Shown here: one piece after another, positions 852 through 20,003 of the stretch
Layout of the letters: each line of letters starts with the position of its first letter
Numbering within the stretch: the first letter of the stretch is position 1
Assembly: GCA_945889235.1 (NCBI GenBank)
Contig: CAMDBK010000003.1
Location: 1 to 47,431 of the forward strand
From: Chitinophaga pinensis
GTDB lineage: Bacteria > Bacteroidota > Bacteroidia > SXHM01
Length of the DNA: 47,431 nt
Direction of reading: 5' to 3'
The notes under the pieces: model-generated
Databases searched by the model: none
Told to the model about the DNA's origin: nothing
Seen by the model: only the letters and a program-made list of their open reading frames with translations
Translations under genes and position numbers: made by a program

Positions 852-1712
852 ATGAGTATACCAAAACCAGACTTCAAAATTTTAAAAAATAAAAAACAGA
901 ATGATGAACTCATTAAGAACGGATATATTGTTCTGCCAATTCTTGATGAAGAAGAAGTTTCTTTTTTCAAGAAGCTTTATAAAAAATGGCATCCAAAACC
1001 ACCCGATGAATTTTATAAATCCTATTTTAGTCAAAACAAAGAATATAAGCATGAAGTTGAGGATGCAATAATCAGTCATTTCAATCCTAAATTAAAAAAA
1101 TATTTTGAAGATAATATTACCTGTGGTGGAATGTTTGTTGTAAAACCAAAAGGTGAAAAAGGACATTTAAATCCACATCAAGACTGGAGCTTGGTAGATG
1201 AAACTAAAAACTGGTCGCTGAATGCATGGTGTCCGCTAATTAATGCAGAAGGAGAAAATGGAAATATGCAAATGTTACCGGGAAGTCATCTTTTTATGAA
1301 AAGCGAAAGAGGTGGCGGCACTCCTTTATTGTATGACCATCTTTGTGATGTAATAACTCCCAACTTAATTGATATACCCATGAAAGCAGGAGAAGCAATT
1401 TTCTTTTTTCACGGGATTGTTCATTGTTCAACAGATAATACAAAAAACGAAGAACGTGTTTGTGTTGGTATGTCACTTATTCAAAAAGATGCGCAACTCT
1501 ATTATTTTTCGCTTAAAGAAAATGAAACCCAACTTAATAAGTTCAAAGTTGACTCTGATTTTTATATTAATTTTGTAAGTAATCAAGATATGTTATTTGA
1601 AAAAGCTATGTATATAGGTAAAAGCAACATCCCAATTTTGATGTTTACAAAGGATGAATTGCTTGAGCATATTCAAAAATTTAATACTGAAGTGAAGTTA
1701 TCTTATTCTTAA
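852..1712 (+). CDS. Phytanoyl-CoA dioxygenase (PhyH)-family Fe(II)/2OG dioxygenase, copy 1
   Basis: PHQDW, NAWCPL, NGNMQMLPGSH, GEAIFFFHGIVHCS, downstream Arg (EERV). Confidence 0.9.
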   Translation: MSIPKPDFKILKNKKQNDELIKNGYIVLPILDEEEVSFFKKLYKKWHPKPPDEFYKSYFSQNKEYKHEVEDAIISHFNPKLKKYFEDNITCGGMFVVKPKGEKGHLNPHQDWSLVDETKNWSLNAWCPLINAEGENGNMQMLPGSHLFMKSERGGGTPLLYDHLCDVITPNLIDIPMKAGEAIFFFHGIVHCSTDNTKNEERVCVGMSLIQKDAQLYYFSLKENETQLNKFKVDSDFYINFVSNQDMLFEKAMYIGKSNIPILMFTKDELLEHIQKFNTEVKLSYS

Positions 1713-1728: not shown

Positions 1729-2949
1729 ATGTCTTCCTATATTAAATGTCTAAATCTTTCTAAGCTTTACCATTTAAGCGGTAATACTAATCTAGAACAA
1801 TCCCAAACAGGAATATTAGGAGAAAATAGAATAAAGGATAACAAACTTTTTGCTTTAGATGATGTGTCATTTTATTTAAATGAAGGTGATAAGTTGGGTG
1901 TAATAGGGATGAATGGAGCAGGGAAATCTACTTTATTAAAAATCATTTCTGGTTTATTAAAGCCATCATCAGGGAGAATAGAAATTTCAGGAAATATTAC
2001 AGCGCTAATTGAACAAACATCTCTTCTTTTCCCTGAAATGACCGGGATAGAGAATATTTTTCTTCAGGGAAGTTTATTGGGTTATAATAATGATTTCATT
2101 CAAAGCAAAGTAGCTTCTATTATTGAATATTCAGGACTTCAACAATATATAAACGAGCCCGTAAAGAATTATTCAAGTGGTATGTCACTCAGACTTTCTT
2201 TTGCACTTATAAATGAATTAGCTCCTGAAATTTTAGTGCTTGATGAAGCTCTTAGTCCAAGTGATAAAGAATTTAGGCAACAAGCAACACTTTCAATAAA
2301 CGAACTTTTTAAAAAATCAAAAATTGTTATCCTTGCCAGCCACCAAATGGAAGAAATTGCTTCATTATGCAATAAATGTATGATATTAAATCAAGGTAAA
2401 GTATCTTTCTTTGGTGATATTGAATCAGCAATTTCATTATACTTTTCACAAAGCAAAATGGCAAATCTTGCTGAAGAAAATAATTTGTTTTCGGTAACAG
2501 AAATTAGTTTTTCAACCAATAAAAGTATTTTCCATACCGGTGAAAAAATTGGAATAAACATTTCATACATTAACAACCTGTCAGATGAAGAGATTTTACC
2601 TTTAATAAATATAACAGGCAGCTTTGGTCCGGTTTTAACTGACAGCCCTCTTTACAGAAAAGATTTCACCAATTATAAAATTAGTAACGGCAGTTGTACT
2701 TGTTACATTGAGATTCCATCTGATTTAATAAACATTGGGAAATATATTATTTCATTCACATTTGGAAACAGCAAAGAAATTTTTTTGCAAATGGATAATG
2801 TCTTATCTTTTAATATTATACCAAATGAATGGGAAAAAAGCAAACCGTGGGTAAGCATGGAGTATAACTTCCCTGTGAGATTCCCCTTAAAGTGGAACTT
2901 TGAAACAAAAAAAAGTAAGCCCGATACCCTATATAGTGCTACAACATAA
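1729..2949 (+). CDS. wzt: Polysaccharide ABC exporter ATP-binding subunit with C-terminal Wzt_C-like domain
   Basis: ALDDVSF, Walker A GMNGAGKST, signature YSSGMSLRL, VLDEAL, ASH; about 160-aa beta-rich C-terminal extension. Confidence 0.9.
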   Translation: MSSYIKCLNLSKLYHLSGNTNLEQSQTGILGENRIKDNKLFALDDVSFYLNEGDKLGVIGMNGAGKSTLLKIISGLLKPSSGRIEISGNITALIEQTSLLFPEMTGIENIFLQGSLLGYNNDFIQSKVASIIEYSGLQQYINEPVKNYSSGMSLRLSFALINELAPEILVLDEALSPSDKEFRQQATLSINELFKKSKIVILASHQMEEIASLCNKCMILNQGKVSFFGDIESAISLYFSQSKMANLAEENNLFSVTEISFSTNKSIFHTGEKIGINISYINNLSDEEILPLINITGSFGPVLTDSPLYRKDFTNYKISNGSCTCYIEIPSDLINIGKYIISFTFGNSKEIFLQMDNVLSFNIIPNEWEKSKPWVSMEYNFPVRFPLKWNFETKKSKPDTLYSATT

Positions 2950-3026: not shown

Positions 3027-3974
3027 ATGAAAATAATTGAAGTTATCAAACAGATTTTTAAAAAACAACAACCGTTAGCCAATCCTGCTATTGAGTTGCG
3101 GAGAGATTCATTTTTCTTAGATAAGAATAAACATGACCAATTTTTGGAAAACGGATGGTGCACTGTTGAAAATGTAGTTAAAAATGAAGAAATAAAAATA
3201 TTTTTGGATACCTTTAATGAAATATCAAAACTGGATGGATTTGAATTGGATAAAAACTTATTAAACAGCGGAAGATTATTTAATCCTGAAATAAGAACAA
3301 AAACAAAGGATGTAATAAATTTAAATGCAAAAACAATTTTGCCGCGAATATTTAATATGGAAAAAGTGGCAGATCATACAGGTGGAGCATATCAGGTAAA
3401 ACCCCCGCATCCAAACAGCGATTTGCAAATACATCAGGATAGCACTGTAATTGATGAACAGAAGGATTATTGCTTATTTATTTGGATTCCCTTTTGCGAT
3501 GTAACAGAATTAAATGGCCCGATATGGGTGTTGCCCGGCAGTCATTTATGGGGAAATATCCAACGCTCTCTGGGAGTCCCTTGGAACTTTCTTAAACATA
3601 TTGATACCTTGAGAAAATATATGCACCCTGTACTTGTTAACAAAGGAGATATAATGATTTTCGATCCGGCACTTATCCATTCATCAGCCCCGAATTTGTC
3701 AACAGAAATACGTCATGCAATTACAATAACTGTTTTAAGAAAAAACTATCAATTAGTCTATTATTATAAAAACAAAAATGGAAAACAAAATAAAATAGAA
3801 AAATACGATGTAAATGAAACCTTTTACTATGACTATGATTTTATTTCGAAGCCTGATGAAACAAAATGGAATAAGACGATAGTTGATTACCAACCTTTTG
3901 ATCTTAAAAAAAGCGAATTACTAACTCTAATTAAGAAATATTTGCCTGTTAATTATTCACGCTCTTTTAAATAA
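3027..3974 (+). CDS. PhyH-family Fe(II)/2OG dioxygenase, copy 2
   Basis: IHQDS, IWIPFCDVTELNGPIWVLPGSH, GDIMIFDPALIHSS, EIRHA. Confidence 0.9.
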   Translation: MKIIEVIKQIFKKQQPLANPAIELRRDSFFLDKNKHDQFLENGWCTVENVVKNEEIKIFLDTFNEISKLDGFELDKNLLNSGRLFNPEIRTKTKDVINLNAKTILPRIFNMEKVADHTGGAYQVKPPHPNSDLQIHQDSTVIDEQKDYCLFIWIPFCDVTELNGPIWVLPGSHLWGNIQRSLGVPWNFLKHIDTLRKYMHPVLVNKGDIMIFDPALIHSSAPNLSTEIRHAITITVLRKNYQLVYYYKNKNGKQNKIEKYDVNETFYYDYDFISKPDETKWNKTIVDYQPFDLKKSELLTLIKKYLPVNYSRSFK

Positions 3975-5698: not shown

Positions 5699-5707
5699 TC
5701 TAAAATT

Positions 5708-7801: not shown

Positions 7802-7901
7802 AATCTGTTTTTTCTGTTAGCAAAACTTTATATTAGTAAAAGCATAGCTATAGAAAAATCACAAGGACTTTGTTGCTTAACAATTTATCTAATAAATTAT
7901 T

Positions 7902-9671
7902 TTATCTGATAAATATATGTTTTTTTCTGTAAACAAGTATATTATTTTGATCATACCCTTCAATGATGTAAACCCCAGATGTCTCAATTCCTGAGTTTGG
8001 AATAACGGTTCCAAAAATATCATGAATAAGCCAATTGTAGCGTGCTGGTAAAATTATATCGCCAATCTTTTGTATGGTAGAAAGAGCTATGTTCGGGTTA
8101 TTATTTTCTGATATTCCAATTGTAATATTTTTTTCTGTTACTCTCCATGCTCCTGTATAACCAGTTTTAATCCAGGCAGATATTTCATCAAGGCTATCTG
8201 AATACGAAAGGGGTAGGCTAAGTTCCTGCTGAACATATTTTAAATTTCCAATTGTCCAAAATACAAGCCCGGAATTAGTATGTGTTAATTTTATTGAATC
8301 TGAAAAAGATACTTCAATAGGTTCAAATGAAAGTATTCTTTCTTCATCAATAAATTCCATCATTGCAACATACATTGTACCGGTAAGATATATTCCTGCA
8401 ACTTTAGTATTAGTCCAGGGATTCCAGATTTGAAATTTTTCATAACTATTAGTTTCAATAGTATCACCTTGATTATCCACAGTAATACTATTGCCATTAC
8501 AGTTACCATGTGTTGTTAAAAGATATCTTCCATCGGCACTCCATTTTGCATAACCTTTACAAATACTTTGCACACCTATATCTGGAGTTTGCCAAATAAG
8601 TTCAGATTTATTGCCAACTACTTCCCATACCTGATGCCTGCCCCCTACAGCATCATTTTCGGGTTTATTATTATAAGTAGCAATAAAGGTAGTATCACCC
8701 TGAACAAATGCACTTGCCCCATGGCATGCATCTAATTGGTTAGTTGTTATTGTTTCTAAATACAATGAATTGTTATTTCTTTGGGGATACCCGAACATCC
8801 AAATAGGTGATATAGATGTATTAACACCATCCCAAAATAATTTATTTATAATTCCCGGATGTCTGGAAGAGGCATATATATTAACTCCGTTACCAGATTC
8901 AGTTTGAGGTTCAATTACATTAATGTGCGGGTGTGAATAGTATTTAAGTCCGCTGGGTAAGGTCTGTAGATGTTTAGGTAATCCAAAGTTTTCCAATGTG
9001 TAACCTTGATGTTAAGGTTCCCATCTAGCTAGTTCAATATTGTTGATTGCATCAATAATATGCAGGGTTGAAAACCGAACACGCATGCTGTCCTGATCTA
9101 TCCAACTTCCTGAGGCATCATACCATTCAAGGTGTGTGCCTATGGCAAGAATATAGTCACTGCCATTTAAATTAAAAGCATTACTATTATGAACATCGTA
9201 TAGAATGGATGTATTGTATTGCCTGCCATGATACATATAGGAATAAGGAATACTCATTGTTACTGTATTTGTCAGGTTGAGAAGCGAATCAAAGGTCATT
9301 ATAGATTCAAACCCTGTTGGCTGTAGTGGTACATCTATTGCTGTGTTTATTTTTGCCACTGACCATGAACTTCCGTTATTAACTGAGCCGAGTAAAAAAA
9401 GTTGGTTGAAACCCGACACGAGCGTATCAGTAGGATAGGGATAGTCAAGCAAACGTTTAAATTTTTTTGCAGGATCAACTATGCCTATAAAATTAGTATC
9501 AATTCCATTAGCAAAGGTTATTGCTCCTATATTTAATAATGGTAAATTTTGAAGCTCTGTAGAATCATATACAGTAACATAGTTATTAATGTCGTTAATA
9601 AAGTAAGGAGTTTGAGATTTTACCTTAGTAAAAAAAGAAAAGAAAAGAATTGTAAAAAATAATTTTTTCAT
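7902..9671 (-). pseudogene. Secreted arylsulfotransferase (ASST)-like gene of about 590 codons, interrupted by one in-frame TAA at 9014-9012 (track ORFs 9012..9671 and 7902..8996)
   Basis: The two ORFs share a frame (...ARWEP*HQGYTLENFG...). Signal peptide MKKLFFTILFFSFFTKVKSQ; ASST-like motifs DVHN, HIN, SSRH, IWMFG, CH..F...YNN; degenerate T9SS-like tail GVYIIEG...KKHIFIR. Confidence 0.7.
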
Positions 9672-9726
9672 GATAGACTAATTAATTAATTAATTCAATG
9701 TAAAAAAATATGTGTCAGCATAATCC

Positions 9727-9734
9727 TACTTTTG
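9727..9734 (+). promoter_or_regulatory. Bacteroidota -7 element TACTTTTG for the SDR/DprE1-like operon
   Basis: Exact TAnnTTTG, 25 nt before the ATG at 9760. Confidence 0.6.
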
Positions 9735-9740
9735 GGGCGT

Positions 9741-9748
9741 CAAAACTA
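9741..9748 (-). promoter_or_regulatory. Bacteroidota -7 element TAGTTTTG for the leftward block (ASST-like gene to membrane protein)
   Basis: Exact TAnnTTTG on the minus strand, 69 nt upstream of the ATG at 9671; forms an inverted repeat with 9727-9734. Confidence 0.5.
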
Positions 9749-9759
9749 GGAAAATAATT

Positions 9760-10641
9760 ATGCCCTATAATACTTTGTTTAGCAAGATATGCCTAGTAAC
9801 AGGAGCTAATTCAGGAATAGGTTTTAACACAGCTTTAACCATGGCAAAACAAAATTGTAAGGTGCTGGTATTGTGCAGAGATAAAGCGAAAGCTCAATAT
9901 GCTCGCAATAGAATAATAGAACTTAGTGGTAATAAAAGTATTATATGTTATTGGTCTGATCTTTCAGACAGAAATGAAATTAATAATATATCAAATCAAA
10001 TTAAATGTGATTTTAATAAAATAGATGTTATTATCCATAATGCTGCATGTGTTTCATCAAAATTCGAACTTACAAAACAGAGCATAGAACTTCAGTTTGC
10101 CGTCAATCATTTAGCACCTTTTTTGCTAACCCATCAACTGTTACCATTGCTTGAAAAAAGTAAAAACGCAAGAATTATTTCGGTAACTTCAAGGGCTCAT
10201 GGCAGAGGAACAATGCACTTTGATGATTTATTTCTGCAAAAAAATTATTCTATTTCTGCCGCTTATAACCAATCAAAATTGGCAAACCTGTTATTTACCT
10301 ACCATCTTGCAAAAAAATTAAAGGGCACAACAATTACAGTAAACGCCTTTCATCCAGGTTTGGTAAACTCGGATATAGGTAGTAAAAATGTTTCTCTTTT
10401 TCACGATTTGGTTTGGCGGATAATCAGGTTACTTGGAGCCTCTCCCGAAAAAGCTGCTGAAGATGCAGTTTTTCTTGCCCTTTCGGATGATATTTCACAG
10501 ATTACAGGTGGATACTTTCACAAAAAACAACAAATACATTCATCAAAAGATAGTTATAATAAAGAGTGGGCTGAACGGCTTTGGAAAATAAGCCTGGAAC
10601 TATGCGGAATTAAAGACGAATTGTATGGTAAAATATCCTGA
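9760..10641 (+). CDS. Classical short-chain dehydrogenase/reductase (retinol dehydrogenase-like subgroup)
   Basis: TGANSGIG, IHNAA, FAVNHLAPFLLT, VTSRAH, YNQSK catalytic YxxxK, HPGLVNSDI. Confidence 0.92.
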   Translation: MPYNTLFSKICLVTGANSGIGFNTALTMAKQNCKVLVLCRDKAKAQYARNRIIELSGNKSIICYWSDLSDRNEINNISNQIKCDFNKIDVIIHNAACVSSKFELTKQSIELQFAVNHLAPFLLTHQLLPLLEKSKNARIISVTSRAHGRGTMHFDDLFLQKNYSISAAYNQSKLANLLFTYHLAKKLKGTTITVNAFHPGLVNSDIGSKNVSLFHDLVWRIIRLLGASPEKAAEDAVFLALSDDISQITGGYFHKKQQIHSSKDSYNKEWAERLWKISLELCGIKDELYGKIS

Positions 10642-12013
10642 GAAAATAATTTCTTCTTACGGACTTTTAACAGCAAAGTCGTATTTATGTCAGCCTTCTT
10701 CTTACAAAGAAATAATTGAATGTATAAATTTTGCAAAAGCCAACGGATTAAAAATAAATCCGACAGGCAGCAGGTTAAGTTTCAGCGATGTTTGTTTGCT
10801 GAATGGACAAATTTCTATTGACTTAACCGGCTTAAATAAAACACTTCGCTTTGATAAAGAAAAAGCTCAAATAATTGTTCACTCAGGTGTGCTGACTTCG
10901 CAGATACTTACAACGATTATGCCAGAAGGTTTTACATTAATTGGTTTAACAGGTTCATTAGGAAATACTGTTGGTGGTGATATTGCAAACGATGTGAATG
11001 GAAAAGATTCATGGAAAAATGGGCATTTTGGTGAAAACGTAATTTCTCTGAAAATGATTACTGCCGATGGACAAATCAATGAATATAATCGTATTCATCA
11101 TACGGATGTAATGAATGCAGTTATTGGAGGAATGGGCTTAATCGGGATAATTATAGAGGTTACACTGAAACTGACTCCTATTAAATCATTTATGATAGAA
11201 ACTAATAGCATAAGAGTAGATAATATTGATGAGTTAGTGAATACCATGAATAGTTTACAGCAAAATGATTATGATTTTGCTTACTGCTGGACTGACCCAT
11301 GGGCTCCTGAAAAAAATTTTGGAAGAGGCTTTTGCGAAACAGCTAGATTTATTGATAATAAAGATGCTTATTCGTCAGAAAATTTTCTAAAAGGTTTTAA
11401 CGAAAAAAAAAAGATTGGTCCATTATCTCCCGAATTATTCTGGACACTATTCCGGAAAATTGATTTCCCTTTTTTCTATCAATGGGCAGGCTACCTGAAA
11501 TATTTTCTGCCCAAGTTACATCAACTTAAAACTGTTCCTTTTCCAGAATATCAATACCCTATGCTGAAATATTTTCCTAAATGGAACTTGAAGTATTATC
11601 CTCATGGCTTTAGAGAAATGCAAATTTTTTTACATGTTGAAAAATTTGCCATAGGCTATAGAAGCATATTATCTTTTTGTCGTGCCAATAACTTCACGCC
11701 TTATATCTGTGCGATACGAAAACATAAAAAGCAAACACCTTTTTTATCCTTTTCGGGCGATGGTTTTTCAATGACTCTAAACTATGGATTGAATGACCAT
11801 TCTGCAAAAGAAACAGAGGCATTTGAAAATAAAATCATTGAGAAAATCATTGAATTTGACGGCAAATTATACTTGGGGAAGTTTCCATTTTTGAACAAGT
11901 CAGCAATGAATAAAATGTATCCTGAGTTGGATAAATTTCTATCATTTAAACAGAAAATAGATTCTGAAAGTTTGTTCTGGTCAGATGCAGCGGAAAGGAT
12001 GTTAACTGATTAG
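10625..12013 (+). CDS. FAD-linked oxidoreductase, VAO/DprE1-like
   Basis: PTGSRLSFSD, TVGGDIANDVNGKD..GHFGENV (cf. DprE1 TVGGAIACDIHGKNHH..GSFGNHV), GGMGLIGII, C-terminal GKLYLGK; 17-bp overlap with the SDR. Confidence 0.8.
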   Translation: MVKYPEKIISSYGLLTAKSYLCQPSSYKEIIECINFAKANGLKINPTGSRLSFSDVCLLNGQISIDLTGLNKTLRFDKEKAQIIVHSGVLTSQILTTIMPEGFTLIGLTGSLGNTVGGDIANDVNGKDSWKNGHFGENVISLKMITADGQINEYNRIHHTDVMNAVIGGMGLIGIIIEVTLKLTPIKSFMIETNSIRVDNIDELVNTMNSLQQNDYDFAYCWTDPWAPEKNFGRGFCETARFIDNKDAYSSENFLKGFNEKKKIGPLSPELFWTLFRKIDFPFFYQWAGYLKYFLPKLHQLKTVPFPEYQYPMLKYFPKWNLKYYPHGFREMQIFLHVEKFAIGYRSILSFCRANNFTPYICAIRKHKKQTPFLSFSGDGFSMTLNYGLNDHSAKETEAFENKIIEKIIEFDGKLYLGKFPFLNKSAMNKMYPELDKFLSFKQKIDSESLFWSDAAERMLTD

Positions 12014-12016
12014 AGG

Positions 12017-12024
12017 TATCTTTG
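12017..12024 (+). promoter_or_regulatory. Bacteroidota -7 element TATCTTTG upstream of the radical SAM gene
   Basis: Exact TAnnTTTG in the 49-nt gap. Confidence 0.55.
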
Positions 12025-12062
12025 TTGATATTTGCAATAACTGATTTTACATACTAAAGAAT

Positions 12063-13475
12063 TTGATTAAAGGCTTATTGATAGACCTTCCTACAAGCCC
12101 GAAGGGAACTATATCGTTGTCATTATTTAATGTCGCTTCCTGCATTTCCGATGTTTGTGAAGTCACGTATCTTGATTTAAATTTTGAGAATGATTCAAAG
12201 ACACTGAAGATATCTGATTTTTCTTCTTTCGGTTTTGCGGGCTTAAAAGTTTCGTCACAAAATTTTCAGATTGCGCAGGAACTTACCCGTAAACTTAAGT
12301 CAAAACATAAACTAAAAATTGTTTGGGGTGGTGAGCTTCCAACCTTATTGCCAGAAGAATGCCTGAAATATGCAGACACTATTATTAATGGCTTGTTTGA
12401 ACCGGTTGCAGAACAATTCTCTCACGACCTTGCCAATAATTCACTAAAACAACATTACAAAGGAGATAACCTTCCTGTTTCAAATCTGAAACCACCTTTC
12501 TTGAGTTTAATTACTGACTTTGAGCGATACAATACCTTTATGGGATTGCCTCTGGAAACATCGCGTGGATGCCCTGAGAATTGCACGTTTTGTATGGTGC
12601 TGACTATGCAGCGGAAAAATTATTACCTGAAAAATATAGAACAATTGTCTAAAGAAATTGATTCTTATCATAACAGATTTATCAACATTATTGACTACAA
12701 CTTTGGTGTAGATTCTGAGCATGTAATCCGGGTTTCAAGTGTTATTGAAAAATCGACCGCATTGGGCTGGATGGCGGAAATGAATATTGAATTGCTTGAC
12801 AATGACGCAATGCTTCAGGCAATGGCAAATAGTCGTTGTAAAATGATTTATTGCGGACTTGAATCAATAGATGAAAAAGCGCTTGAGTCGGTGAATAAAG
12901 CAAGAGTAAATGTTGTAGAGAACTACAGGCGGATAATAAAAAAAGCGCAGTCATACGGCATTAATGTAGCTGCCGGCCTTATCCTCGGCTTAGAAGGCAT
13001 GAATGAAGACCTGACCAAACGAACTTTTCAATTTTATTCCGAAGTTGGTATCATCTACACCAAGCTTACTTTTTTAACATTTAATCCGGGAACACGGGTA
13101 AAAGATTTTATGTCAAAGAAAGGTGTTTTTGTAACCGAAGAAATTGAAAAATATGATGGGATTCACCTGACTTACTTAGCTCCTGGGATGAATGAAAAAG
13201 AAATTTATTCAGTTGGTAGATGGTATATCTTAAATTTTTATTCAATAAAAAATATTGTATCGAGATCATTGAAGACACCTATCTCATTGAAGAAAAAAAT
13301 AGAATTTATTTTATTCAACATTTGTTATAGGGCTGCTTACTTAGACTGGCTGAAATATGATATTTTTGAAAAGGAAGAAAATTTTACAAGAATGTTAACC
13401 TCTCACTATTCTAAGCCAATAAAGTTGAAGCTGGCAGAAAAAATGTTGAATTATATCAGAAAGTCTTACCTGTAA
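12063..13475 (+). CDS. Radical SAM enzyme with N-terminal cobalamin-binding-type domain (class B / HpnP-BchE-like architecture)
   Basis: ETSRGCPENCTFC (CxxxCxxC), KIVWGGELPTLLPEE, GCKMIYCGLES-like segment, AGLILGLEG, TFNPGT; TTG start. Confidence 0.85.
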   Translation: MIKGLLIDLPTSPKGTISLSLFNVASCISDVCEVTYLDLNFENDSKTLKISDFSSFGFAGLKVSSQNFQIAQELTRKLKSKHKLKIVWGGELPTLLPEECLKYADTIINGLFEPVAEQFSHDLANNSLKQHYKGDNLPVSNLKPPFLSLITDFERYNTFMGLPLETSRGCPENCTFCMVLTMQRKNYYLKNIEQLSKEIDSYHNRFINIIDYNFGVDSEHVIRVSSVIEKSTALGWMAEMNIELLDNDAMLQAMANSRCKMIYCGLESIDEKALESVNKARVNVVENYRRIIKKAQSYGINVAAGLILGLEGMNEDLTKRTFQFYSEVGIIYTKLTFLTFNPGTRVKDFMSKKGVFVTEEIEKYDGIHLTYLAPGMNEKEIYSVGRWYILNFYSIKNIVSRSLKTPISLKKKIEFILFNICYRAAYLDWLKYDIFEKEENFTRMLTSHYSKPIKLKLAEKMLNYIRKSYL

Positions 13476-13483
13476 TTTAAGGG

Positions 13484-14299
13484 TTAAGATATTTTATTAA
13501 TCACTTGCAACCACTTGTATTTCCACTTTCCAATTTTTGAGTCGTTCATTTTAACGGATGCTACTTTTTTCAAAATTTCAGGTCCTTTCTGAATATCTTC
13601 ATTGAGAAAAAAGTCAGGGCTGCTTTCATACATTTCCACATTTCCGTTATTGCCGCAGTAATAATACATCTGTGCTTTTTCTGAAATAATACCGAATACA
13701 GAGGCCAAACGTAAATCCTTTGTTTGATTGGGCTCAGAAGCATGGAACAGGCGGTGGTCATAAATCAATGCTTCTCCTGCTTTCATATAAAGTGGTTTCA
13801 TGGCATTCCAGATTTCTTCGTGCACATTCTCAAATGTATCGGGCAGGTTTGGTCCACGGAATGTTTTTATCCACCTATGACTTTTAGGCATCACTTTTAT
13901 CACCCCGTTTTCTTTGGTTAAATCAACCAAAGGAATCCAGATATTAAATGAGCGATGCTTTTCTTCATCCACTATATTCCAGTCCTGGTGCGGGTGTAAG
14001 CGTTCTTTCTGTGTATTTGATTTTACAACAAATGAGCCACCAAGTGGACTGCATTCATGAAAATAATCATCAACACTTCGCTGAAAAACACTCTTAATTC
14101 GTTCGTTCATTTTTTTACGAAACGAAATATCCTGAACGTGAGCAGTTGCATAAAACCCGTTGATTCCATCAGGATGATTTTCGTAAAAAAAATCTGTAAG
14201 ATTTTTGATTTCCGTTTCGTTCAGAAACGAAACAACAATATAGCCTTCTTTCAGCAAAAGCTTATCAAGAGCCGGGTTACTAAGAATTTTTTCAGCCAT
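13484..14299 (-). CDS. PhyH-family Fe(II)/2OG dioxygenase, copy 3
   Basis: PHQDW, NIWIPLVDLTKENG, PKSH, GEALIYDHRLFHAS, DLRLA. Confidence 0.9.
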   Translation of the reverse strand: MAEKILSNPALDKLLLKEGYIVVSFLNETEIKNLTDFFYENHPDGINGFYATAHVQDISFRKKMNERIKSVFQRSVDDYFHECSPLGGSFVVKSNTQKERLHPHQDWNIVDEEKHRSFNIWIPLVDLTKENGVIKVMPKSHRWIKTFRGPNLPDTFENVHEEIWNAMKPLYMKAGEALIYDHRLFHASEPNQTKDLRLASVFGIISEKAQMYYYCGNNGNVEMYESSPDFFLNEDIQKGPEILKKVASVKMNDSKIGKWKYKWLQVINKIS

Positions 14300-14300
14300 T

Positions 14301-15257
14301 TCAGTTGCTGAAAATAGAAGTTAATTTTTTCAAAAAAGATTTTTCTTTTCCTTTTGCAACAAGTATTTCAGGTGGAGCAGCAAACGGATTGGTTTTCATT
14401 TTATAACCGGCTGATGTTTTCATTTCCCGTATTTTTTCATACAACTCTTTACCTTTAAATTGTGGTAGTGTGTAAGGAATAAAACCAATGCTTTTCCCGT
14501 TTTTAGGACGAAGTGCAATGTCTTCTGCAAAATTTTCAAAGCGGATTAAAAAGTCATCATCTTCTTCAAAAACTTCGAGCTCATTTTTTACTAACGCTGA
14601 ATCTTTATAATGAAAATACATCTGCGCGCCTTTTGATTTTATTCCCGCGGTAATTGCTTTTCTTACAGTGCTTCCAAGATTAGGCAATGAATAGTGAATA
14701 ACGCTTTGATTTAAAATTACTGCTGTTCCCGCCTTTACAATCATGGGTTCCAGTTCATTGATAATCATTTTTTCTTCACCTGAAAAAAAGAAGGGTAGGG
14801 TAGGGGCGCGCACTACATTCAGGTTTTTAAAATGACTACCTGGGAGAATCATTAAAGGACCATTTTCAAGCGTTATGTCGCAAAGCGGAACCCAGCAATT
14901 AAGTGCAACGAATTTTTGCTCGTCAACAATTGTCCAGTCCTGGTGGGCAGCAAGCTCGCTGTTTGCACCGGGAACTTTGAAAAGAAACGCACCGCCAAAA
15001 GGAGTATAATCAACAAATAATTCCTGATAGCTCCGGCTGAATTTTTTTACAATCTCATCACTGGCTTTCTTTTTATAGTTGAGATCAGAAGAATAACTAC
15101 CTGAAAAAAAACCTGCGGAATTTGTTTCAGGATGAAGCTGGTCAAAGATTTTATTCAACTCTTCCAACTCACATGGATTTAGAAAAGGCAGCACAATAAA
15201 TCCCTGCTTGTCAAACAGGCTTTGATGTTCATCGCTTTTAAAAATCCGAACTGACAT
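14301..15257 (-). CDS. PhyH-family Fe(II)/2OG dioxygenase, copy 4
   Basis: AHQDW, NCWVPLCDITLENGPLMILPGSH, GTAVILNQSVIHYS, TVRKA. Confidence 0.9.
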   Translation of the reverse strand: MSVRIFKSDEHQSLFDKQGFIVLPFLNPCELEELNKIFDQLHPETNSAGFFSGSYSSDLNYKKKASDEIVKKFSRSYQELFVDYTPFGGAFLFKVPGANSELAAHQDWTIVDEQKFVALNCWVPLCDITLENGPLMILPGSHFKNLNVVRAPTLPFFFSGEEKMIINELEPMIVKAGTAVILNQSVIHYSLPNLGSTVRKAITAGIKSKGAQMYFHYKDSALVKNELEVFEEDDDFLIRFENFAEDIALRPKNGKSIGFIPYTLPQFKGKELYEKIREMKTSAGYKMKTNPFAAPPEILVAKGKEKSFLKKLTSIFSN

Positions 15258-16204
15258 TAGTTAATCAATTCCATTACACGTTTGAAAATGCTCTTTCGCT
15301 CAACTGTATTTTCAACAGGTTGCTTTGGAACAGCATTCAAAATCAATTCGCGGGCGTTTGTTTTCGTAAAATGTTTTTCAAGAAAATCGGTATCAATTTT
15401 TGGAAAATTGTATTCAACAAGACCTAATGAAGTGCCCACTTTCGGGCGGTCATGAATATTCTCACCGAATTGCTGAAAATTGGTCATAAAGCTATCATCC
15501 TGTGCAAATGCTTCTACATATCCCGGTTGGGTTTTATCAAAATAATAAGTGCGGTATTCGGTATTTTTATGTGTAAAATAAGTATTGGTAACAATTCTGA
15601 TTTTGTCAGAATAGTTTGGAGGAGAAAAATGAATAATGCTTTGGTCAAAAAATACAGCTTCACCGGCTTTCAATAAAACGGGTTGCAGGTAGTCAATCAT
15701 TTGCTCGCTTACATTTTGAAAAAATTCAGGAATGGAAGAACCTCTGTAAGTAGGAAAAACACGATGACTTCCGGGCAAAACAAATAATGCACCATTCTCA
15801 ATAGTCAAATCAACAAGCGGCACCCAGATATTAATTCCTGTAAAACGTGATTCATCTACCAGCGACATATCCTGGTGAACACACATGCCGCTTTCAGGTC
15901 CGGGACTTTTAACAATAAAACTTCCGCAAACTACTTTAATATTTTCGCAATACTTTTCAATGCCAGGCTCACACATTCTGCGGATTTCAGCATCTGCTAC
16001 CGTGCGGTAATTTTTATCTCCTGAAAATGTGCTGGGGAAAAAGCCTTTTTCATTTATTGGATGCAATCTGTAATACAGCGCCTCAAGTTCCTTTATTTCC
16101 TTTTCATTGTAAAAAGGTAAAATAACAAACCCGTTCTTTTCAAACTCATCCTGATGTTTTACGTCACAAAACAACTTAAGCATTTTATCAGGGAATTTGA
16201 ACAT
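15257..16204 (-). CDS. PhyH-family Fe(II)/2OG dioxygenase, copy 5
   Basis: VHQDM, NIWVPLVDLTIENGALFVLPGSH, GEAVFFDQSIIHFS, KIRIV; TAATG coupling on both sides. Confidence 0.9.
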   Translation of the reverse strand: MFKFPDKMLKLFCDVKHQDEFEKNGFVILPFYNEKEIKELEALYYRLHPINEKGFFPSTFSGDKNYRTVADAEIRRMCEPGIEKYCENIKVVCGSFIVKSPGPESGMCVHQDMSLVDESRFTGINIWVPLVDLTIENGALFVLPGSHRVFPTYRGSSIPEFFQNVSEQMIDYLQPVLLKAGEAVFFDQSIIHFSPPNYSDKIRIVTNTYFTHKNTEYRTYYFDKTQPGYVEAFAQDDSFMTNFQQFGENIHDRPKVGTSLGLVEYNFPKIDTDFLEKHFTKTNARELILNAVPKQPVENTVERKSIFKRVMELIN

Positions 16205-18120
16205 TATGATTGTGCTCCTACAAGCCTGCTTTTAATTTCTTTTACAATATTAAGCGGAGTATATTTTTTAAAAAAACTTCTGCTGTCTGGCCATTTTTCA
16301 ACAGGTTTTTGCTCTGTTGATATTATTTCCTGTTTCGGTTCTTCCACCTTTTTTTCCTGTGTAATGTTGCCAAAAAGTTTTGCTAATTTTTCAGTCATAG
16401 GAACATTGAAAACATTTCCTGCAGACTTAATAATATCAATCAATTCCTCACTTGAATATGTTGTATATTGATAAGGAACTTCAATTGGTTCACCATAACC
16501 TTCAATCAATTTTTTTTCATCAAACATTTTTGCAAGCGTAGCATTTTCATACTTTAAGAAAAAATCTTCATCTACGTTATAGCGTAGCATGGTTTTATAA
16601 GTGCCATCAGGCTTCATAAAATAATGTACTAGCTGTGCATCATTTTGTGTAACTCCAACACCTGCTGCAAGCCTTATTGCTGGGGTTGTATTAGGCGGTG
16701 AGGCATGAATAGTGCGGTTATCAAACATTAATACCTCGCCAGCTTTCATATCAATTGTATGCAGATATGGAAAAATACTGAACATATGTTCGCTCAGCGG
16801 AACCGGTGCTTGAGGTGATGGTGACGGGCGGTGGTTTTGCATAAATTTGTGGCTACCACGAATTACACCCATTTGTCCGTTGTCCAAATTTGTGTCTACC
16901 AAGGTAATCCAACAGGTTATGGACGAGTATCCATCCTCCTCTCTGTCAACAAAACTCCAGTCTTGATGTGCAGGAACAACCCCTTTAGGATTGGTTTCTT
17001 TTACTACAAAACTAGCTACAAAAGGTTTAAAATTTTTAAGATGTTCGCTCAGTTTTGGAAGAGCTGTATCCCAAATTTTCTCTCTTATCTGTCTGCACAG
17101 ATTCTTGTCTGCATTGTCCATACTTACATGAAAGCCCAATCCTTTCTCATCTCTAAGGTTTAATGATTCATAATACAATTTTAAATCATTCACTTCAGTT
17201 TCATTCAACAAAGGAAATACGGCAAAGCCTTCACGCTCAAAATATTTTTGCTTTTGCTCGTCAATAAATAGGGGAATCATTTTATACATGGCATTTTGCT
17301 TACGTGCAAAGTAAGAATTTTTTATCTTACGATATTCTTCAGTGTTTATCAGGTACTCATTATAGTTGAATTCTGCAACTTTTTTTCCTGTTGAAGGTGG
17401 TTGACCAATTTGTGTATTGTAGCGCTGAAAAAAATCAATTTCTACTTCATATTTCTCAACCAGATTAAGTTCATTTTTATGGTAAAAATACATTTGAGCT
17501 GAAGATGGAATTAACCCATAAGTTACTACCAGCCTTTGATTTGAACTTTTGTTTTGCGGGGAAGCATGTAGTAAAGCCTGACTGAAAATTAATGCGTCAC
17601 CTGCTTTCATCGCAATACTTTCTAAATCTTTTCTAACTTCAGTTTGAACATCCAGAAAAGGGTTTACCAATGAAGGTGAACGTAGTGCATCACTATACCT
17701 ATGACTGCCTTCCACAACCTGCATTGCTCCATTTTTTTCATTTACATCACAAAGTGGCACCCAAATGGTGAGTGAATCAAATTCAGGCTCATTAACAACT
17801 GTCCAATCTTGATGAATCGGCATTTCACCTTGCGGACCGGGAGATTTATTAAGAAAACAACTTCCTAATTTTTTTACTGCCTCAAACGTGCTTTTTATTT
17901 TTTCATCAAAGATTTTGTCAACACCTGCAATCAGTTTTTCTTTCACAACTGTATCGTTGCTGAAGCTGGTTGAGTAAAATCCTTCAGGTGTTTCTTTTAT
18001 TTCATTGCTGTAAAGTTCACTAAGGGCAAGTGTTTCAGAAGGCGATAAAAAGGGTATTACAACAAATCCTTTTAATTCAAATTGTTGTTGCCGGTTATCG
18101 TCTTTAAAAATTCTTGCCAT
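16204..18120 (-). CDS. Tandem two-domain PhyH-family dioxygenase, copy 6 (domains 6a and 6b)
   Basis: Two complete motif sets: IHQDW/VEGSH/LLHAS/NQRL and AHQDW/IRGSH/TIHAS/AIRL. Confidence 0.9.
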   Translation of the reverse strand: MARIFKDDNRQQQFELKGFVVIPFLSPSETLALSELYSNEIKETPEGFYSTSFSNDTVVKEKLIAGVDKIFDEKIKSTFEAVKKLGSCFLNKSPGPQGEMPIHQDWTVVNEPEFDSLTIWVPLCDVNEKNGAMQVVEGSHRYSDALRSPSLVNPFLDVQTEVRKDLESIAMKAGDALIFSQALLHASPQNKSSNQRLVVTYGLIPSSAQMYFYHKNELNLVEKYEVEIDFFQRYNTQIGQPPSTGKKVAEFNYNEYLINTEEYRKIKNSYFARKQNAMYKMIPLFIDEQKQKYFEREGFAVFPLLNETEVNDLKLYYESLNLRDEKGLGFHVSMDNADKNLCRQIREKIWDTALPKLSEHLKNFKPFVASFVVKETNPKGVVPAHQDWSFVDREEDGYSSITCWITLVDTNLDNGQMGVIRGSHKFMQNHRPSPSPQAPVPLSEHMFSIFPYLHTIDMKAGEVLMFDNRTIHASPPNTTPAIRLAAGVGVTQNDAQLVHYFMKPDGTYKTMLRYNVDEDFFLKYENATLAKMFDEKKLIEGYGEPIEVPYQYTTYSSEELIDIIKSAGNVFNVPMTEKLAKLFGNITQEKKVEEPKQEIISTEQKPVEKWPDSRSFFKKYTPLNIVKEIKSRLVGAQS

Positions 18121-18128
18121 ATTTTGAA

Positions 18129-19049
18129 TTATGAAAATACCTCTTTGAGTTTTGACATAAGGCCGTGTTTTGTTTTTTCTTCATCAAACCCCGGTGCATT
18201 TATGCGCTGCATAAATTCTTTTTCATCAATAAAATGATGGGTGTAAGGAATGCTTCTCAAAATTTTAACTCCCGTTGGTTTTTTCCAGGGATTGAACTGC
18301 ATGTAAAAATCAACATCTACCTCGAGTACATTTACCTTTTCGCTGCTAACCGATGGATCCATATGATAATGCAATGATGAAAACTCAGAAGGAATGCAAA
18401 TTAGTTGAATAGCAAGGCGCAAATCATTTGTTTTGTTTACAGCCGAATAGTGAACTATGCTGTCATCCAGTATCACACAATCTCCTGCTTTTGTTTCCAA
18501 AGGCACAAGGTGATTTTCAATTATTTCTTTTTTTATGTTATCCAACTCCCATGGAATCATTGGTCCGCGTAACTCACCAAAACGCTTATGGCTGCCGGGA
18601 ACTACCTGCAATGTTCCGTTCTCAACTGTGGAGTCAACCAACGGGCACCAGATGGAAACCGTTGAGCATTTGCGTTCATCTGCAAAAGCCCAGTTCTGAT
18701 GCAGAGGGACTTCACCGGTTTCATTTTTTTTACGGATATAATTGGCAATTATAGGGCGATAGTTGTCCAGCAATTTATCCATTGACGGTTTAAATTCTTT
18801 GGTGATGATATCAAAAACCCGTTGCTTATATTCAGGGTTTTTGTCAATGAAGGTAAAATCATAAGTAATTGCTCTTCCTTCTGCGATGCCTGTTTCTCCG
18901 GAGGTAATTTGCCCCCCGCTTTCAATAATGGAATCAAAAAATTTATCTTTTAGATTTTGAACTTCCTCTTTTGAAATAAAAGGAACTGAAACGTATCCGT
19001 TTTTCCTGAATTCAGATTCAAGTTTTATATCTGTAAAAACTTTTCTCAT
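18129..19049 (-). CDS. PhyH-family dioxygenase, copy 7, with HQN in place of HQD
   Basis: LHQNW (AAC at 18695-18693), SIWCPLVDSTVENGTLQVVPGSH, GDCVILDDSIVHYS, DLRLA. Confidence 0.88.
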   Translation of the reverse strand: MRKVFTDIKLESEFRKNGYVSVPFISKEEVQNLKDKFFDSIIESGGQITSGETGIAEGRAITYDFTFIDKNPEYKQRVFDIITKEFKPSMDKLLDNYRPIIANYIRKKNETGEVPLHQNWAFADERKCSTVSIWCPLVDSTVENGTLQVVPGSHKRFGELRGPMIPWELDNIKKEIIENHLVPLETKAGDCVILDDSIVHYSAVNKTNDLRLAIQLICIPSEFSSLHYHMDPSVSSEKVNVLEVDVDFYMQFNPWKKPTGVKILRSIPYTHHFIDEKEFMQRINAPGFDEEKTKHGLMSKLKEVFS

Positions 19050-19105
19050 GGTATTTGTTTATGCAAAGAAAGGGTTTAAAAATAGAAGATCAAAAATGAT
19101 TTTCA

Positions 19106-19954
19106 TCATAAATTATCAATCATTTCACCTTCTTTTTTTATAAAAAAGTGAATGGCAGATATAGTTAAACAAATTGCTAATAAACAACTCCACAAACAGG
19201 CTGCAATGTTTATTGCTTCTCCAAATAAAACAAAACGATACATGTTTAATACTCCTGTCATTGGGTTAATGCTTATTATCCATGAATAAGGTTGAGGTAT
19301 TATAGTTACCGGAAAAAAAACAGGAGTGAGCCAAATGCTGAAATTTACAAGATAGGGCACAAATTGATTTATATCTTTAAAGCGGATATTCAGTAGACTT
19401 AACCAAACTGCTGCTCCAAATCCCAAAAATATATTCACAACTAAAACTAAAGGAAGTAGCACAATGGTAGTATGTGGAAAATAGCCTAATAATGGCATAA
19501 GCAGTAGCATTAACAAAAATGAAATAACCCAATCATTAAGAGCGTCTGCAATTGTCAGAATAGGAAATAATAATAACGGAATATTTTTCTTTTTTATTAT
19601 TTCAGCATTCGATTTGATAGATTGGCTGCCAATATTAAATATTACTGTAAATAGGTTCCAAGCTATCAACCCTGAAAGGGCAAAGAGCGAATAAGGATAA
19701 TCACCGGTAGAAATTTTTATAAACCAGGAAAATAGAATAGTAAAAACTAAAACAACAATTCCAGGCTTTAATATTGCCCATGCAATCCCTAGTTTTGTTT
19801 GTACATATTGTTGCTTAATATTTCTTTCATAGAGGGCTGTTAGTATATGCCTGTTATTCCAAAGTTCTATAAAATATTCACGCCAAGATGGTGGTTCAGG
19901 AGTAATTATTTTTAGTGGACGTTGCAATTGAAAACAGGTTGTTTTTGGGTTCAA
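19106..19954 (-). CDS. wzm: Polysaccharide ABC exporter permease (ABC-2 type)
   Basis: YVQTKLGIAWAILKP, six hydrophobic segments, RFKDINQFVP, WLTPVFFP, NPMTGVLNMYR. The start may be the downstream TTG at 19927, because a TAATTTTG promoter motif overlaps 19959-19952. Confidence 0.9.
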   Translation of the reverse strand: MNPKTTCFQLQRPLKIITPEPPSWREYFIELWNNRHILTALYERNIKQQYVQTKLGIAWAILKPGIVVLVFTILFSWFIKISTGDYPYSLFALSGLIAWNLFTVIFNIGSQSIKSNAEIIKKKNIPLLLFPILTIADALNDWVISFLLMLLLMPLLGYFPHTTIVLLPLVLVVNIFLGFGAAVWLSLLNIRFKDINQFVPYLVNFSIWLTPVFFPVTIIPQPYSWIISINPMTGVLNMYRFVLFGEAINIAACLWSCLLAICLTISAIHFFIKKEGEMIDNL

Positions 19955-20003
19955 AATTATACATTTTGAATGAAGAATGTTTATGAGTTTAGGAATATAG
20001 CAC

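What the first reader, a model, noticed from the sequence alone, without database searches (positions are those of the whole stretch)
13484..18170. MinD-like amphipathic membrane-targeting tails on the PhyH paralogs
Seen: the minus-strand paralogs end, mostly after a low-complexity linker, in short basic amphipathic helices. These are EKSFLKKLTSIFSN (14301-14345), RKSIFKRVMELIN (15257-15298), KHGLMSKLKEVFS (18129-18170), RSFFKKYTPLNIVKEIKSRL (16204-16281) and KWKYKWLQVINKIS (13484-13528). Copy 2 instead has an N-terminal MKIIEVIKQIFKK (3027-3065). Established: the E. coli MinD tail KKGFLKRLFGG is a membrane-targeting sequence of this pattern. Inference: these cytoplasmic enzymes (no signal peptides) dock on the inner membrane, implying a lipid or polyprenyl-linked substrate.
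Basis: partly seen in the sequence, partly recalled or inferred. Interest (0 to 1): 0.62.

Follow-up and report, generated by a model that had tools for sequence, protein, structure and literature searches.

The report
Membrane-anchor tails on clustered PhyH dioxygenases
Five neighbouring iron/2-oxoglutarate dioxygenases in a sugar-polymer export gene cluster each end in a floppy linker plus a short basic, greasy helix that most likely parks them on the inner face of the cell membrane; the trick is familiar, but I found no report of it in this enzyme family.

Summary
All six quoted peptides translate exactly at the quoted coordinates. Their 11-residue hydrophobic moments (0.57-0.81) match MinD, FtsA and MreB reference anchors. 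Only about 5% of 1980 crude ORFs of this genome have such a C-end.

The tails are conserved in character but not in sequence. 92 of 120 close homologues of one paralogue pass the same strict test. All five orthologue groups in 63 related Bacteroidota loci keep a tail, and their moment peaks at 90-110 degrees against a flat background. A 71% GC relative beside Wzm-Wzt has an Arg/Val/Leu version.

AlphaFold2 models of two paralogues show a confident core, a disordered linker and a free terminal helix. Three distant relatives carry a 19-residue hydrophobic anchor instead.

The best reading is a set of in-plane membrane anchors. They would hold a battery of cytoplasmic PhyH dioxygenases beside a Wzm/Wzt exporter, acting on a lipid-linked glycan as WbdD and TagA do.

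Caveats:
- Three tails look weak on their own.
- The two-domain protein has a separate, sequence-conserved motif (FFxKYTPxNIxREIKxRLxG).
- Nothing has been tested experimentally.

This is a new member of a known kind and of moderate interest.

The parts
13484..13528 (-). C-terminal tail KWKYKWLQVINKIS of the 271-aa PhyH protein (gene 13484-14299)
   Evidence: Translation confirmed. Moment 0.61, charge +2 to +5. Wimley-White estimate -6.8 kcal/mol including helix folding. 32 of 48 group members in related loci pass the strict test.
14301..14345 (-). C-terminal tail EKSFLKKLTSIFSN of the 318-aa PhyH protein (gene 14301-15257)
   Evidence: Moment 0.71, charge +3. The AF2 helix spans residues 309-316. 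92 of 120 homologues and 53 of 65 locus orthologues pass.
14337..14387 (-). Disordered linker (residues 291-307) between the PhyH core and the tail of the 14301 protein
   Evidence: AF2 pLDDT is below 50-62 here and above 90 in the core. In 118 homologues the stretch after the last conserved helix is 4-50 residues long and rich in E/K/P/T/S.
15257..15298 (-). C-terminal tail RKSIFKRVMELIN of the 315-aa PhyH protein (gene 15257-16204)
   Evidence: Moment 0.72. About 50 of 55 true orthologues end in a KSFFQRIKELVS-like helix.
16204..16281 (-). C-terminal tail RSFFKKYTPLNIVKEIKSRLVGAQS of the two-domain 638-aa PhyH protein (gene 16204-18120). This is the class II, sequence-conserved motif.
   Evidence: The motif WxWxDDRxFFxKYTPxNIxREIKxRLxG is kept in about 47 orthologues. 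AF2 helices span residues 616-619 and 622-634, with pLDDT 66-74. In two distant relatives the motif lies just before a hydrophobic anchor.
16288..16359 (-). Disordered linker (residues 588-611) of the two-domain protein
   Evidence: AF2 pLDDT is below 50.
18129..18170 (-). C-terminal tail KHGLMSKLKEVFS of the 306-aa PhyH protein (gene 18129-19049)
   Evidence: Moment 0.60. Orthologues end in G(F/L)(V/I)SKLKA(V/M)F. 23 of 54 pass the strict test, and most of the true orthologues that fail miss only narrowly, on net charge or moment.
3027..3065 (+). N-terminal amphipathic helix MKIIEVIKQIFKK of the 315-aa PhyH protein (gene 3027-3974), followed by a roughly 15-residue extension absent from the other paralogues
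   Evidence: Moment 0.81. Five of six orthologues keep an N-terminal helix with moment 0.58-0.68, against a genome 90th percentile of 0.56.
852..1712 (+). PhyH paralogue without a tail (an internal negative example)
   Evidence: Pfam hit. The protein ends just after the last structural helix.
19106..19954 (-). Wzm-type ABC-2 permease, directly upstream of the five PhyH genes in the same operon direction
   Evidence: PF01061. Syntenic with the PhyH genes in 34 of 63 loci and in L001 and L002.
1729..2949 (+). Wzt-type ABC ATPase with a C-terminal extension of about 150 aa
   Evidence: PF00005. The best NCBIfam matches are galactan Wzt/RfbE and TagH, both below their curated cut-offs.

Best explanation
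Each tail is an in-plane, cationic amphipathic helix on a flexible tether. It acts as a membrane-targeting sequence that holds a cytoplasmic PhyH-family Fe(II)/2-oxoglutarate dioxygenase at the inner leaflet of the cytoplasmic membrane.

Five co-transcribed genes carrying six catalytic domains follow the Wzm permease gene. The enzymes would therefore act as a membrane-bound tailoring battery on a lipid-linked substrate before Wzm/Wzt exports it. That substrate is most likely a polyprenyl-phosphate-linked glycan.

The individual tails are short and three are weak. Stable binding probably needs avidity, through several tails in an oligomer or fused domains, and anionic lipids, as it does for MinD.

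Shown here: the sequence features, their conservation, the predicted disorder plus helix, and the gene context. Inferred: actual membrane binding, complex formation and the nature of the substrate.
For: - The tails are exactly as quoted. Their moments of 0.57-0.81 equal or exceed those of reference anchors. The genome background pass rate is 5.2%.
- The paralogues are only 23-41% identical to each other, yet each keeps a tail.
- Conservation is of character, not sequence. 92 of 120 close homologues pass. Orthologues of all five in a Flavobacteriales MAG have tails, and four of five in another genome do.
- Across 63 loci the strict pass rates are 53/65, 57/86, 32/48 and 23/54, with a conserved motif in the fifth group.
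- The mean moment peaks at 90-110 degrees in all five groups against a flat background. Mean net charge is +1.6 to +2.9 against +0.7.
- The linkers are indel-rich (4-50 residues) and rich in E/K/P/T/S. The tails are rich in K/L/F/S/I/R/W.
- AF2 gives a confident core, a linker with pLDDT below 50 and a terminal helix, in two different paralogues.
- Three 50%-cluster representatives carry a hydrophobic 19-residue C-terminal anchor instead. In two of them it follows the YTPxN..EI motif directly.
- A 71% GC contig has Wzm-Wzt-PhyH2x-PhyH, and the two-domain protein ends in RRVARRVRRLVRR. AT-rich codon bias therefore does not explain the tails.
[quoted passage not shown] TagA lacking its C-terminal appendage becomes mostly soluble (PMC6493773).
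Against: - There is no experiment. All related loci come from uncultured MAGs.
- Wimley-White estimates for the 15257, 18129 and 3027 helices are only -1.2 to -2.2 kcal/mol, against -4 to -6 for the references.
- Within single sequences the arrangement often does not beat shuffles of the same 12 residues. Between 4/47 and 27/56 orthologues per group do so, with a crude fixed window.
- The 16204-type tail is conserved in sequence, which suggests a specific partner rather than generic lipid binding.
- Several paralogues in the same genome have no tail: 852-1712 and three on contig C158.
- My strict test also scores the C-terminal structural helix of 3027-type proteins as positive, so it produces false positives.
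Confidence: 0.7

Rival explanations
1. The tails are docking peptides for a protein partner (the Wzm/Wzt exporter, a scaffold or another PhyH paralogue) rather than lipid binders. Membrane localisation would then be indirect.
For: - The tail of the two-domain protein is conserved in sequence (FFxKYTPxNIxREIKxRLxG) across about 47 orthologues. It also appears on other paralogues in L051, L052 and L056, like a portable module.
- AF2 gives it a moderate pLDDT of 66-74.
- The PhyH genes always sit next to Wzm.
- Fusions of two or three domains are common, so the paralogues probably interact.
Against: - The other four tail classes vary freely in sequence while keeping charge and periodicity. That is typical of lipid binding, not of a specific interface.
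- Some relatives replace the tail with a hydrophobic anchor.
- The TM-anchored relative P0155 is not next to an exporter.
Confidence: 0.15
2. The C-terminal helix is a lid or regulatory appendage. It would fold back over the active site or a dimer interface, as the C-terminal appendage of TagA also does, and membrane contact would be secondary or absent.
For: TagA's appendage is needed for catalysis as well as for membrane binding (PMC6493773). C-terminal lids are known in PhyH-type enzymes; for example, a 9-residue truncation mutant of SptF was crystallised (listed).
Against: - AF2 does not dock the helix on the core with confidence, and the linker is disordered.
- Linker length ranges from 4 to 50 residues.
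- The tail can be N-terminal instead, or be replaced by a hydrophobic anchor.
Confidence: 0.08
3. The tails are a by-product of composition: an AT-rich, Lys/Ile/Phe-rich genome, plus constraints from the translation-initiation region of the next overlapping gene. They would have no function.
For: The genes overlap or abut (TAATG junctions at 16204 and 15257), so the tail codons lie in the upstream region of the next gene. The cluster is 29-37% GC.
Against: - Only 5% of this genome's ORFs have such ends.
- The last gene of the row (13484) has a tail although no gene follows it.
- A 71% GC relative has an Arg/Val/Leu tail.
- The moment peaks at the alpha-helical angle in all five groups.
Confidence: 0.03

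Closest known systems
WbdD C-terminal amphipathic helix (E. coli O9a O-antigen chain terminator, Wzm/Wzt pathway)
   Same: A cytoplasmic tailoring enzyme of an ABC-transporter-dependent glycan pathway. [quoted passage not shown]
   Different: WbdD is a kinase/methyltransferase with long coiled coils that recruits the polymerase WbdA. Here the carriers are PhyH dioxygenases with a short disordered tether, and five to six of them sit in a row.
MinD membrane-targeting sequence (E. coli KKGFLKRLFGG; B. subtilis KGMMAKIKSFFG), with the FtsA C-terminal and MreB N-terminal helices
   Same: A short (about 10-15 residues) cationic amphipathic helix at the extreme end of a soluble protein, conserved in character rather than sequence, and weak enough to depend on multivalency. 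The moments are comparable.
   Different: There is no homology to ParA/MinD or actin-like proteins (Pfam finds only PhyH). There is no ATP-driven dimerisation switch. The function would be enzyme placement, not pattern formation.
TagA C-terminal appendage (wall teichoic acid glycosyltransferase)
   Same: An enzyme acting on an undecaprenyl-linked substrate that is later exported by an ABC-2 type transporter. Helix H11 in its C-terminal appendage is amphipathic, and the truncated protein is mostly soluble (PMC6493773).
   Different: In TagA the appendage also completes the active site and competes with dimerisation. There is no sign of that here.
Soluble PhyH-family sugar-tailoring oxygenases (SnoK/SnoN, HygX/EvdO2, MysH, PHYHD1)
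   Same: The same double-stranded beta-helix fold. These are the best Foldseek and HMM matches. Several of them act on sugar moieties.
   Different: The matches are weak (TM 0.45-0.59, 14-21% identity). They cover the catalytic core only, not the linker and tail. From general knowledge, not tested here, those enzymes are soluble.

Membership tests
Terminal amphipathic membrane-targeting sequence (functional class typified by MinD, FtsA, MreB and WbdD) | Lies at the extreme N- or C-terminus of an otherwise soluble protein | tested here: met
   The tails end 0-5 residues from the stop codon, and there are no signal peptides or TM segments.
Terminal amphipathic membrane-targeting sequence (functional class typified by MinD, FtsA, MreB and WbdD) | A segment of about 10-15 residues with alpha-helical amphipathic periodicity and large apolar residues on one face | tested here: met
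   Moments are 0.57-0.81, within the range of the references. Ortholog-group means peak at 90-110 degrees. AF2 predicts helices.
Terminal amphipathic membrane-targeting sequence (functional class typified by MinD, FtsA, MreB and WbdD) | Net positive charge | tested here: met
   +1 to +5 in the window. Group means are +1.6 to +2.9 against +0.7 for the background.
Terminal amphipathic membrane-targeting sequence (functional class typified by MinD, FtsA, MreB and WbdD) | Separated from the folded domain by a flexible linker and not part of the fold | tested here: met
   AF2 gives low-pLDDT linkers in two paralogues. Linker length is 4-50 residues and rich in E/K/P/T/S. The other three proteins were not modelled.
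Terminal amphipathic membrane-targeting sequence (functional class typified by MinD, FtsA, MreB and WbdD) | Conserved in physicochemical character across orthologues | tested here: met
   plus the Arg-based version in a 71% GC relative.
Terminal amphipathic membrane-targeting sequence (functional class typified by MinD, FtsA, MreB and WbdD) | Necessary and sufficient for membrane localisation (GFP fusion, fractionation, liposome binding) | not testable with these tools
   This needs bench work. Only a rough Wimley-White estimate was possible: three tails fall in the reference range and three are weaker.
MinD/ParA ATPase family (homology) | Deviant Walker A ATPase domain carrying the tail | tested here: not met
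   Pfam finds only PF05721 PhyH, plus weak matches to other 2OG oxygenase families. The resemblance is one of mechanism only.
PhyH family Fe(II)/2-oxoglutarate dioxygenases (PF05721) | Pfam match above the gathering score | tested here: met
   45-153 bits against a cut-off of 22 for all seven proteins.
PhyH family Fe(II)/2-oxoglutarate dioxygenases (PF05721) | HxD/E...H iron-binding facial triad | tested here: inconclusive
   HQD(W/M/S) plus a distal H is present in six proteins. The 18129 group has H(Q/E)NW, with Asn for the carboxylate, in about 46 orthologues.
PhyH family Fe(II)/2-oxoglutarate dioxygenases (PF05721) | Double-stranded beta-helix fold | tested here: met
   AF2 mean pLDDT is 88.6 and 90.6. 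Foldseek finds SnoK, MysH, PHYHD1 and HygX at E of about 1e-10.
ABC-transporter-dependent (Wzm/Wzt) lipid-linked glycan assembly locus | ABC-2 permease and a Wzt/TagH-like ATPase in the locus | tested here: met
   PF01061 at 19106-19954 and PF00005 at 1729-2949. The best NCBIfam matches are galactan Wzt and TagH, below their cut-offs.
ABC-transporter-dependent (Wzm/Wzt) lipid-linked glycan assembly locus | Initiating phosphoglycosyltransferase and chain-extending glycosyltransferases | tested here: inconclusive
   Only two short GT2 genes are present (104-844 and 7121-7801), and the locus is cut by the contig end at base 1. No initiating transferase (WecA or WbaP type) was among the Pfam hits of the 20 cluster ORFs scanned; the rest of the genome was not searched.

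The most novel reading that the evidence does not exclude
The tails are the assembly code of a so far undescribed membrane-bound 'dioxygenase battery'. Six or more PhyH domains, including one with an Asn-for-Asp iron site, would be tethered around a Wzm/Wzt exporter. The class II motif (FFxKYTPxNIxREIKxRLxG) would dock the two-domain enzyme to the transporter or to a specific lipid. Together the enzymes would make a heavily oxidised lipid-linked glycan or lipid that is unknown from cultured bacteria. The module is widespread in uncultured freshwater and wastewater Bacteroidota, and it also occurs in a 71% GC contig of unknown lineage.
Probability: 0.2. Interest if true: 0.7.

Novelty: new member of a known kind. 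Interest (0 to 1): 0.42.

Why it matters
Terminal amphipathic helices are a well-known way to place soluble proteins on the bacterial membrane. WbdD and TagA show that enzymes of ABC-transporter-dependent glycan pathways use them. I found no report of the PhyH family of Fe/2-oxoglutarate dioxygenases doing so.

The tails narrow the substrate of an unusually large, conserved and uncharacterised set of dioxygenases. It should be something anchored in the membrane, not a soluble nucleotide sugar or metabolite. That is a useful constraint for anyone trying to reconstitute the pathway.

They also give a simple, cheap experimental handle, through GFP fusions and tail deletions, on a gene module known only from metagenome-assembled genomes.

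Tried and rejected
- **Literature.** Four full-text searches for PhyH or 2OG dioxygenases combined with Wzm/Wzt, Bacteroidetes clusters or amphipathic helices found nothing relevant.
- **Specific family names.** NCBIfam gave only sub-threshold hits, such as the sporadic carbohydrate cluster oxygenase, chlorinating enzyme and methylphosphonate hydroxylase.
- **PDB sequence and fold searches.** These found only generic PhyH-type natural-product oxygenases at TM 0.45-0.59. That is too distant to assign a reaction.
- **Positive control.** FtsA of this genome has its amphipathic helix about 10 residues from the C-end and fails my strict last-16-residue filter. The filter is therefore conservative and misses real anchors. 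E. coli MinD (moment 0.41) would also fail it.
- **False positives.** The strict filter passes the structural C-terminal helix of 3027-type proteins. Pass rates are therefore indicative only.
- **Per-sequence shuffles.** Shuffling a fixed 12-residue window gave weak per-sequence significance, from 4/47 to 27/56. The group-level angle scan is the more informative result.
- **Composition or codon-bias explanation.** Rejected.
- **Secretion signal or T9SS C-terminal domain.** Rejected on general knowledge: the tails are 13-25 residues, far shorter than a T9SS domain, and the enzymes need cytoplasmic 2-oxoglutarate and Fe(II).
- **Paralogue tree.** I considered building a tree to date the origin of the tail and did not, because the per-orthogroup conservation already answered the question.
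Full report
**What is there**

The window is contig C3 of a 2.98-Mb, 340-contig draft genome. Its first 20 kb is lower in GC than the rest, 29-37% against 38-45%. This stretch is an envelope-glycan type locus. It contains:
- two GT2 glycosyltransferases;
- a Wzt-like ABC ATPase and a Wzm ABC-2 permease;
- an AspH/LpxO-like hydroxylase;
- a PglD-like acetyltransferase;
- an SDR plus a FAD/ALO oxidase;
- a B12-radical SAM enzyme;
- seven PhyH (PF05721) genes carrying eight catalytic domains.

Five of the PhyH genes form a tight row on the minus strand directly after wzm: 18129-19049, 16204-18120 (two domains), 15257-16204, 14301-15257 and 13484-14299. Two junctions are TAATG overlaps.

**Check of the observation**

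Every quoted peptide translates exactly at the quoted coordinates.

On the Fauchere-Pliska scale, the best 11-residue helical hydrophobic moment is 0.57-0.72 for the five C-tails and 0.81 for the N-terminal helix of the 3027 protein. The reference anchors give 0.41 (E. coli MinD), 0.57 (B. subtilis MinD), 0.84 (FtsA) and 0.66 (MreB N-terminus).

Among 1980 crude ORFs of the same genome, 102 (5.2%) have a C-end with moment >=0.57, net charge >=+1 and mean hydrophobicity >=0.3. Four of the five adjacent genes pass and the fifth sits on the threshold. The filter is conservative. The genome's own FtsA carries its helix about 10 residues from the end and fails, and so would E. coli MinD.

**Conservation**

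The paralogues are only 23-41% identical to one another. A shared tail is therefore not a trivial consequence of recent duplication.

- Of 120 close homologues of the 14301 protein (60-81% identical in the core), 92 pass the strict test.
- In that set, the stretch after the last conserved helix is 4-50 residues long. The linker is rich in E/K/P/T/S and the last 12 residues are rich in K/L/F/S/I/R/W.
- A scan of species-representative genomes found 63 loci, all from uncultured Bacteroidota MAGs: Chitinophagales, Flavobacteriales and one labelled Verrucomicrobia.
- Most loci keep the same gene order: Wzm, the 18129-type gene, the two-domain gene, then the 15257-, 14301- and 13484-type genes.
- Strict pass rates by group are 53/65 (14301), 57/86 (15257; about 50 of 55 true orthologues), 32/48 (13484) and 23/54 (18129).
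- In the 18129 group, most of the true orthologues that fail keep a G(F/L)(V/I)SKLKA(V/M)F-like ending and miss narrowly on net charge or moment.
- The mean moment of each group peaks at 90-110 degrees (0.43-0.55). The genome background is flat at 0.26-0.30. Mean net charge is +1.6 to +2.9 against +0.7.

**Two kinds of tail**

Four groups have a generic tail of the form (K/R)-x-phi-phi-x-(K/R/Q)-phi-x-x-phi-phi, which varies freely in sequence.

The two-domain protein has a sequence-conserved motif instead: WxWxDDRxFFxKYTPxNIxREIKxRLxG. This motif also ends other paralogues in three loci, L051, L052 and L056. It is still a cationic amphipathic helix preceded by an aromatic patch. Its conservation leaves room for a specific partner.

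**Structure**

AlphaFold2 on the 14301 protein used 53 sequences and gave a mean pLDDT of 88.6. The core is confident up to about residue 290, residues 291-307 are disordered, and residues 309-316 form a helix.

The two-domain protein was modelled with 41 sequences and gave a mean pLDDT of 90.6. It has two confident domains, a disordered stretch at residues 588-611, and helices at 616-619 and 622-634 with pLDDT 66-74. Both models therefore show a tethered terminal helix.

**Independent pointers to the membrane**

A profile-free search of 1.84 billion representatives with the 15257 protein gave 3224 relatives. Many are fusions of two or three domains. Of the best 150, 40 pass the strict test, and several others are plainly MinD-like, for example ...KAGFWKRLFGR.

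Three representatives (P0126, P0127 and P0155) end in a 19-residue hydrophobic segment with a Kyte-Doolittle mean of 2.6-2.7. In two of them it directly follows the YTPxN..EI motif. The amphipathic tail and a true hydrophobic anchor therefore appear interchangeable.

A 71% GC contig carries Wzm-Wzt-PhyH2x-PhyH, and its two-domain protein ends in ...ARRVARRVRRLVRR. This removes the AT-rich composition explanation. It also shows that the link to the exporter reaches beyond Bacteroidota.

**The N-terminal case**

The 3027 protein has an N-terminal extension of about 25 residues relative to its paralogues, made of a helix plus a linker. Five of its six orthologues keep an N-terminal amphipathic helix, MSI(L/I)xF(I/F)K..., with moments of 0.58-0.68 against a genome 90th percentile of 0.56. 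Its C-end is simply the last structural helix, as in the 852 protein.

**Limits**

- A Wimley-White interfacial estimate puts the 13484, 14301 and 16204 tails in the range of the reference anchors: -5.0 to -6.8 kcal/mol including helix folding, against -4.0 to -6.0.
- The 15257, 18129 and 3027 helices come out at only -1.2 to -2.2 kcal/mol, because each contains a Glu. Single tails may bind weakly, and fusion or oligomerisation would help.
- The genome has 16 PhyH domain hits in all, against none in 14 control genomes. On contig C158, three paralogues have tails and three do not. The one on C72 does not.
- Nothing here has been tested experimentally.

**Mechanism and comparison**

The best reading is that the tails are in-plane membrane anchors. 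They would keep cytoplasmic Fe/2OG dioxygenases at the inner leaflet, next to Wzm/Wzt, where a lipid-linked glycan is built and tailored before export.

The closest functional precedents come from the same type of pathway. [quoted passage not shown] TagA becomes mostly soluble without its C-terminal appendage (PMC6493773). MinD, FtsA and MreB are mechanistic analogues only, since Pfam finds nothing but PhyH in these proteins.

The nearest structures are soluble PhyH-type oxygenases that tailor sugars of natural products: SnoK/SnoN, HygX/EvdO2 and MysH. They fit a glycan substrate but do not define a reaction.

Literature searches found no report of PhyH enzymes with such anchors or of this gene module.

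**Earlier notes of this scan**

Notes on three other genomes reached the same reading. They are not independent evidence. I tested the claim afresh here.

**Verdict**

This is a new member of a known kind and of moderate interest. The more novel question is what the dioxygenase battery makes, and that remains open.

Noticed in passing
window 18129-19049 (-), and orthologues in L004-L065: The first PhyH of the row has H-Q-N-W where the others have H-Q-D-W. Asn replaces the iron-binding carboxylate of the facial triad. About 46 orthologues keep this as HQNW or HENW. The protein could be a non-canonical iron site, a halogenase-like variant or a pseudoenzyme.
   Followed up: partly
G000 contigs C158 (7.2 kb) and C72: The genome has 16 PhyH domain hits: 8 in the window, 7 on the short contig C158 and 1 on C72. 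None occurs in 14 well-known control genomes. C158 may continue this locus, since the window starts at a contig end. Three C158 paralogues have tails and three do not.
   Followed up: partly
L004-L066 (genome contigs): All 63 related loci come from metagenome-assembled genomes of uncultured Bacteroidota, mostly from lakes, bogs and wastewater. No cultured isolate carries the module.
   Followed up: no
L051, L052, L056; P0126, P0155: The class II tail motif (F/W)xxYTPxN(I/V)xxE(I/V)xxR is modular. It ends 15257-type fusions and 13484-type proteins in some loci. In two distant relatives it sits directly before a hydrophobic anchor.
   Followed up: partly
L069 (5.4-kb contig, 71% GC): The order Wzm - Wzt - two-domain PhyH - PhyH occurs in a high-GC organism of unknown lineage, with an Arg-rich tail. 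The PhyH/exporter association is therefore not confined to Bacteroidota.
   Followed up: partly
window 12063-13475 (+): The B12-binding radical SAM enzyme also ends in a cationic amphipathic stretch, KLAEKMLNYIRKSYL (moment 0.68, charge +2), and passes the strict tail test. A B12-rSAM gene accompanies the PhyH row in about 17 of 63 loci.
   Followed up: no
window 15257 and 16204 (-): The stop and start codons of consecutive PhyH genes overlap as TAATG, which suggests translational coupling and equimolar synthesis.
   Followed up: no
window 1-20000 versus 20000-47431: The glycan locus is 29-37% GC and the rest of the window is 38-45% GC. This is typical of horizontally exchanged surface-glycan loci.
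   Followed up: no
related loci (clusters c2, c4, c6, c12, c13, c21): Accessory genes recur near the PhyH row in other genomes: a SAM methyltransferase (15 loci), a UbiA-like polytopic prenyltransferase (12), a DegT aminotransferase (10), a GFO/IDH/MocA oxidoreductase, KAS III, and a membrane protein that looks like a fatty-acid desaturase from its histidine boxes. Clusters c2, c4 and c21 were named by reading the sequences; the others match Pfam calls in L001 and L002. The window instead has a DprE1/DprE2-like pair.
   Followed up: no
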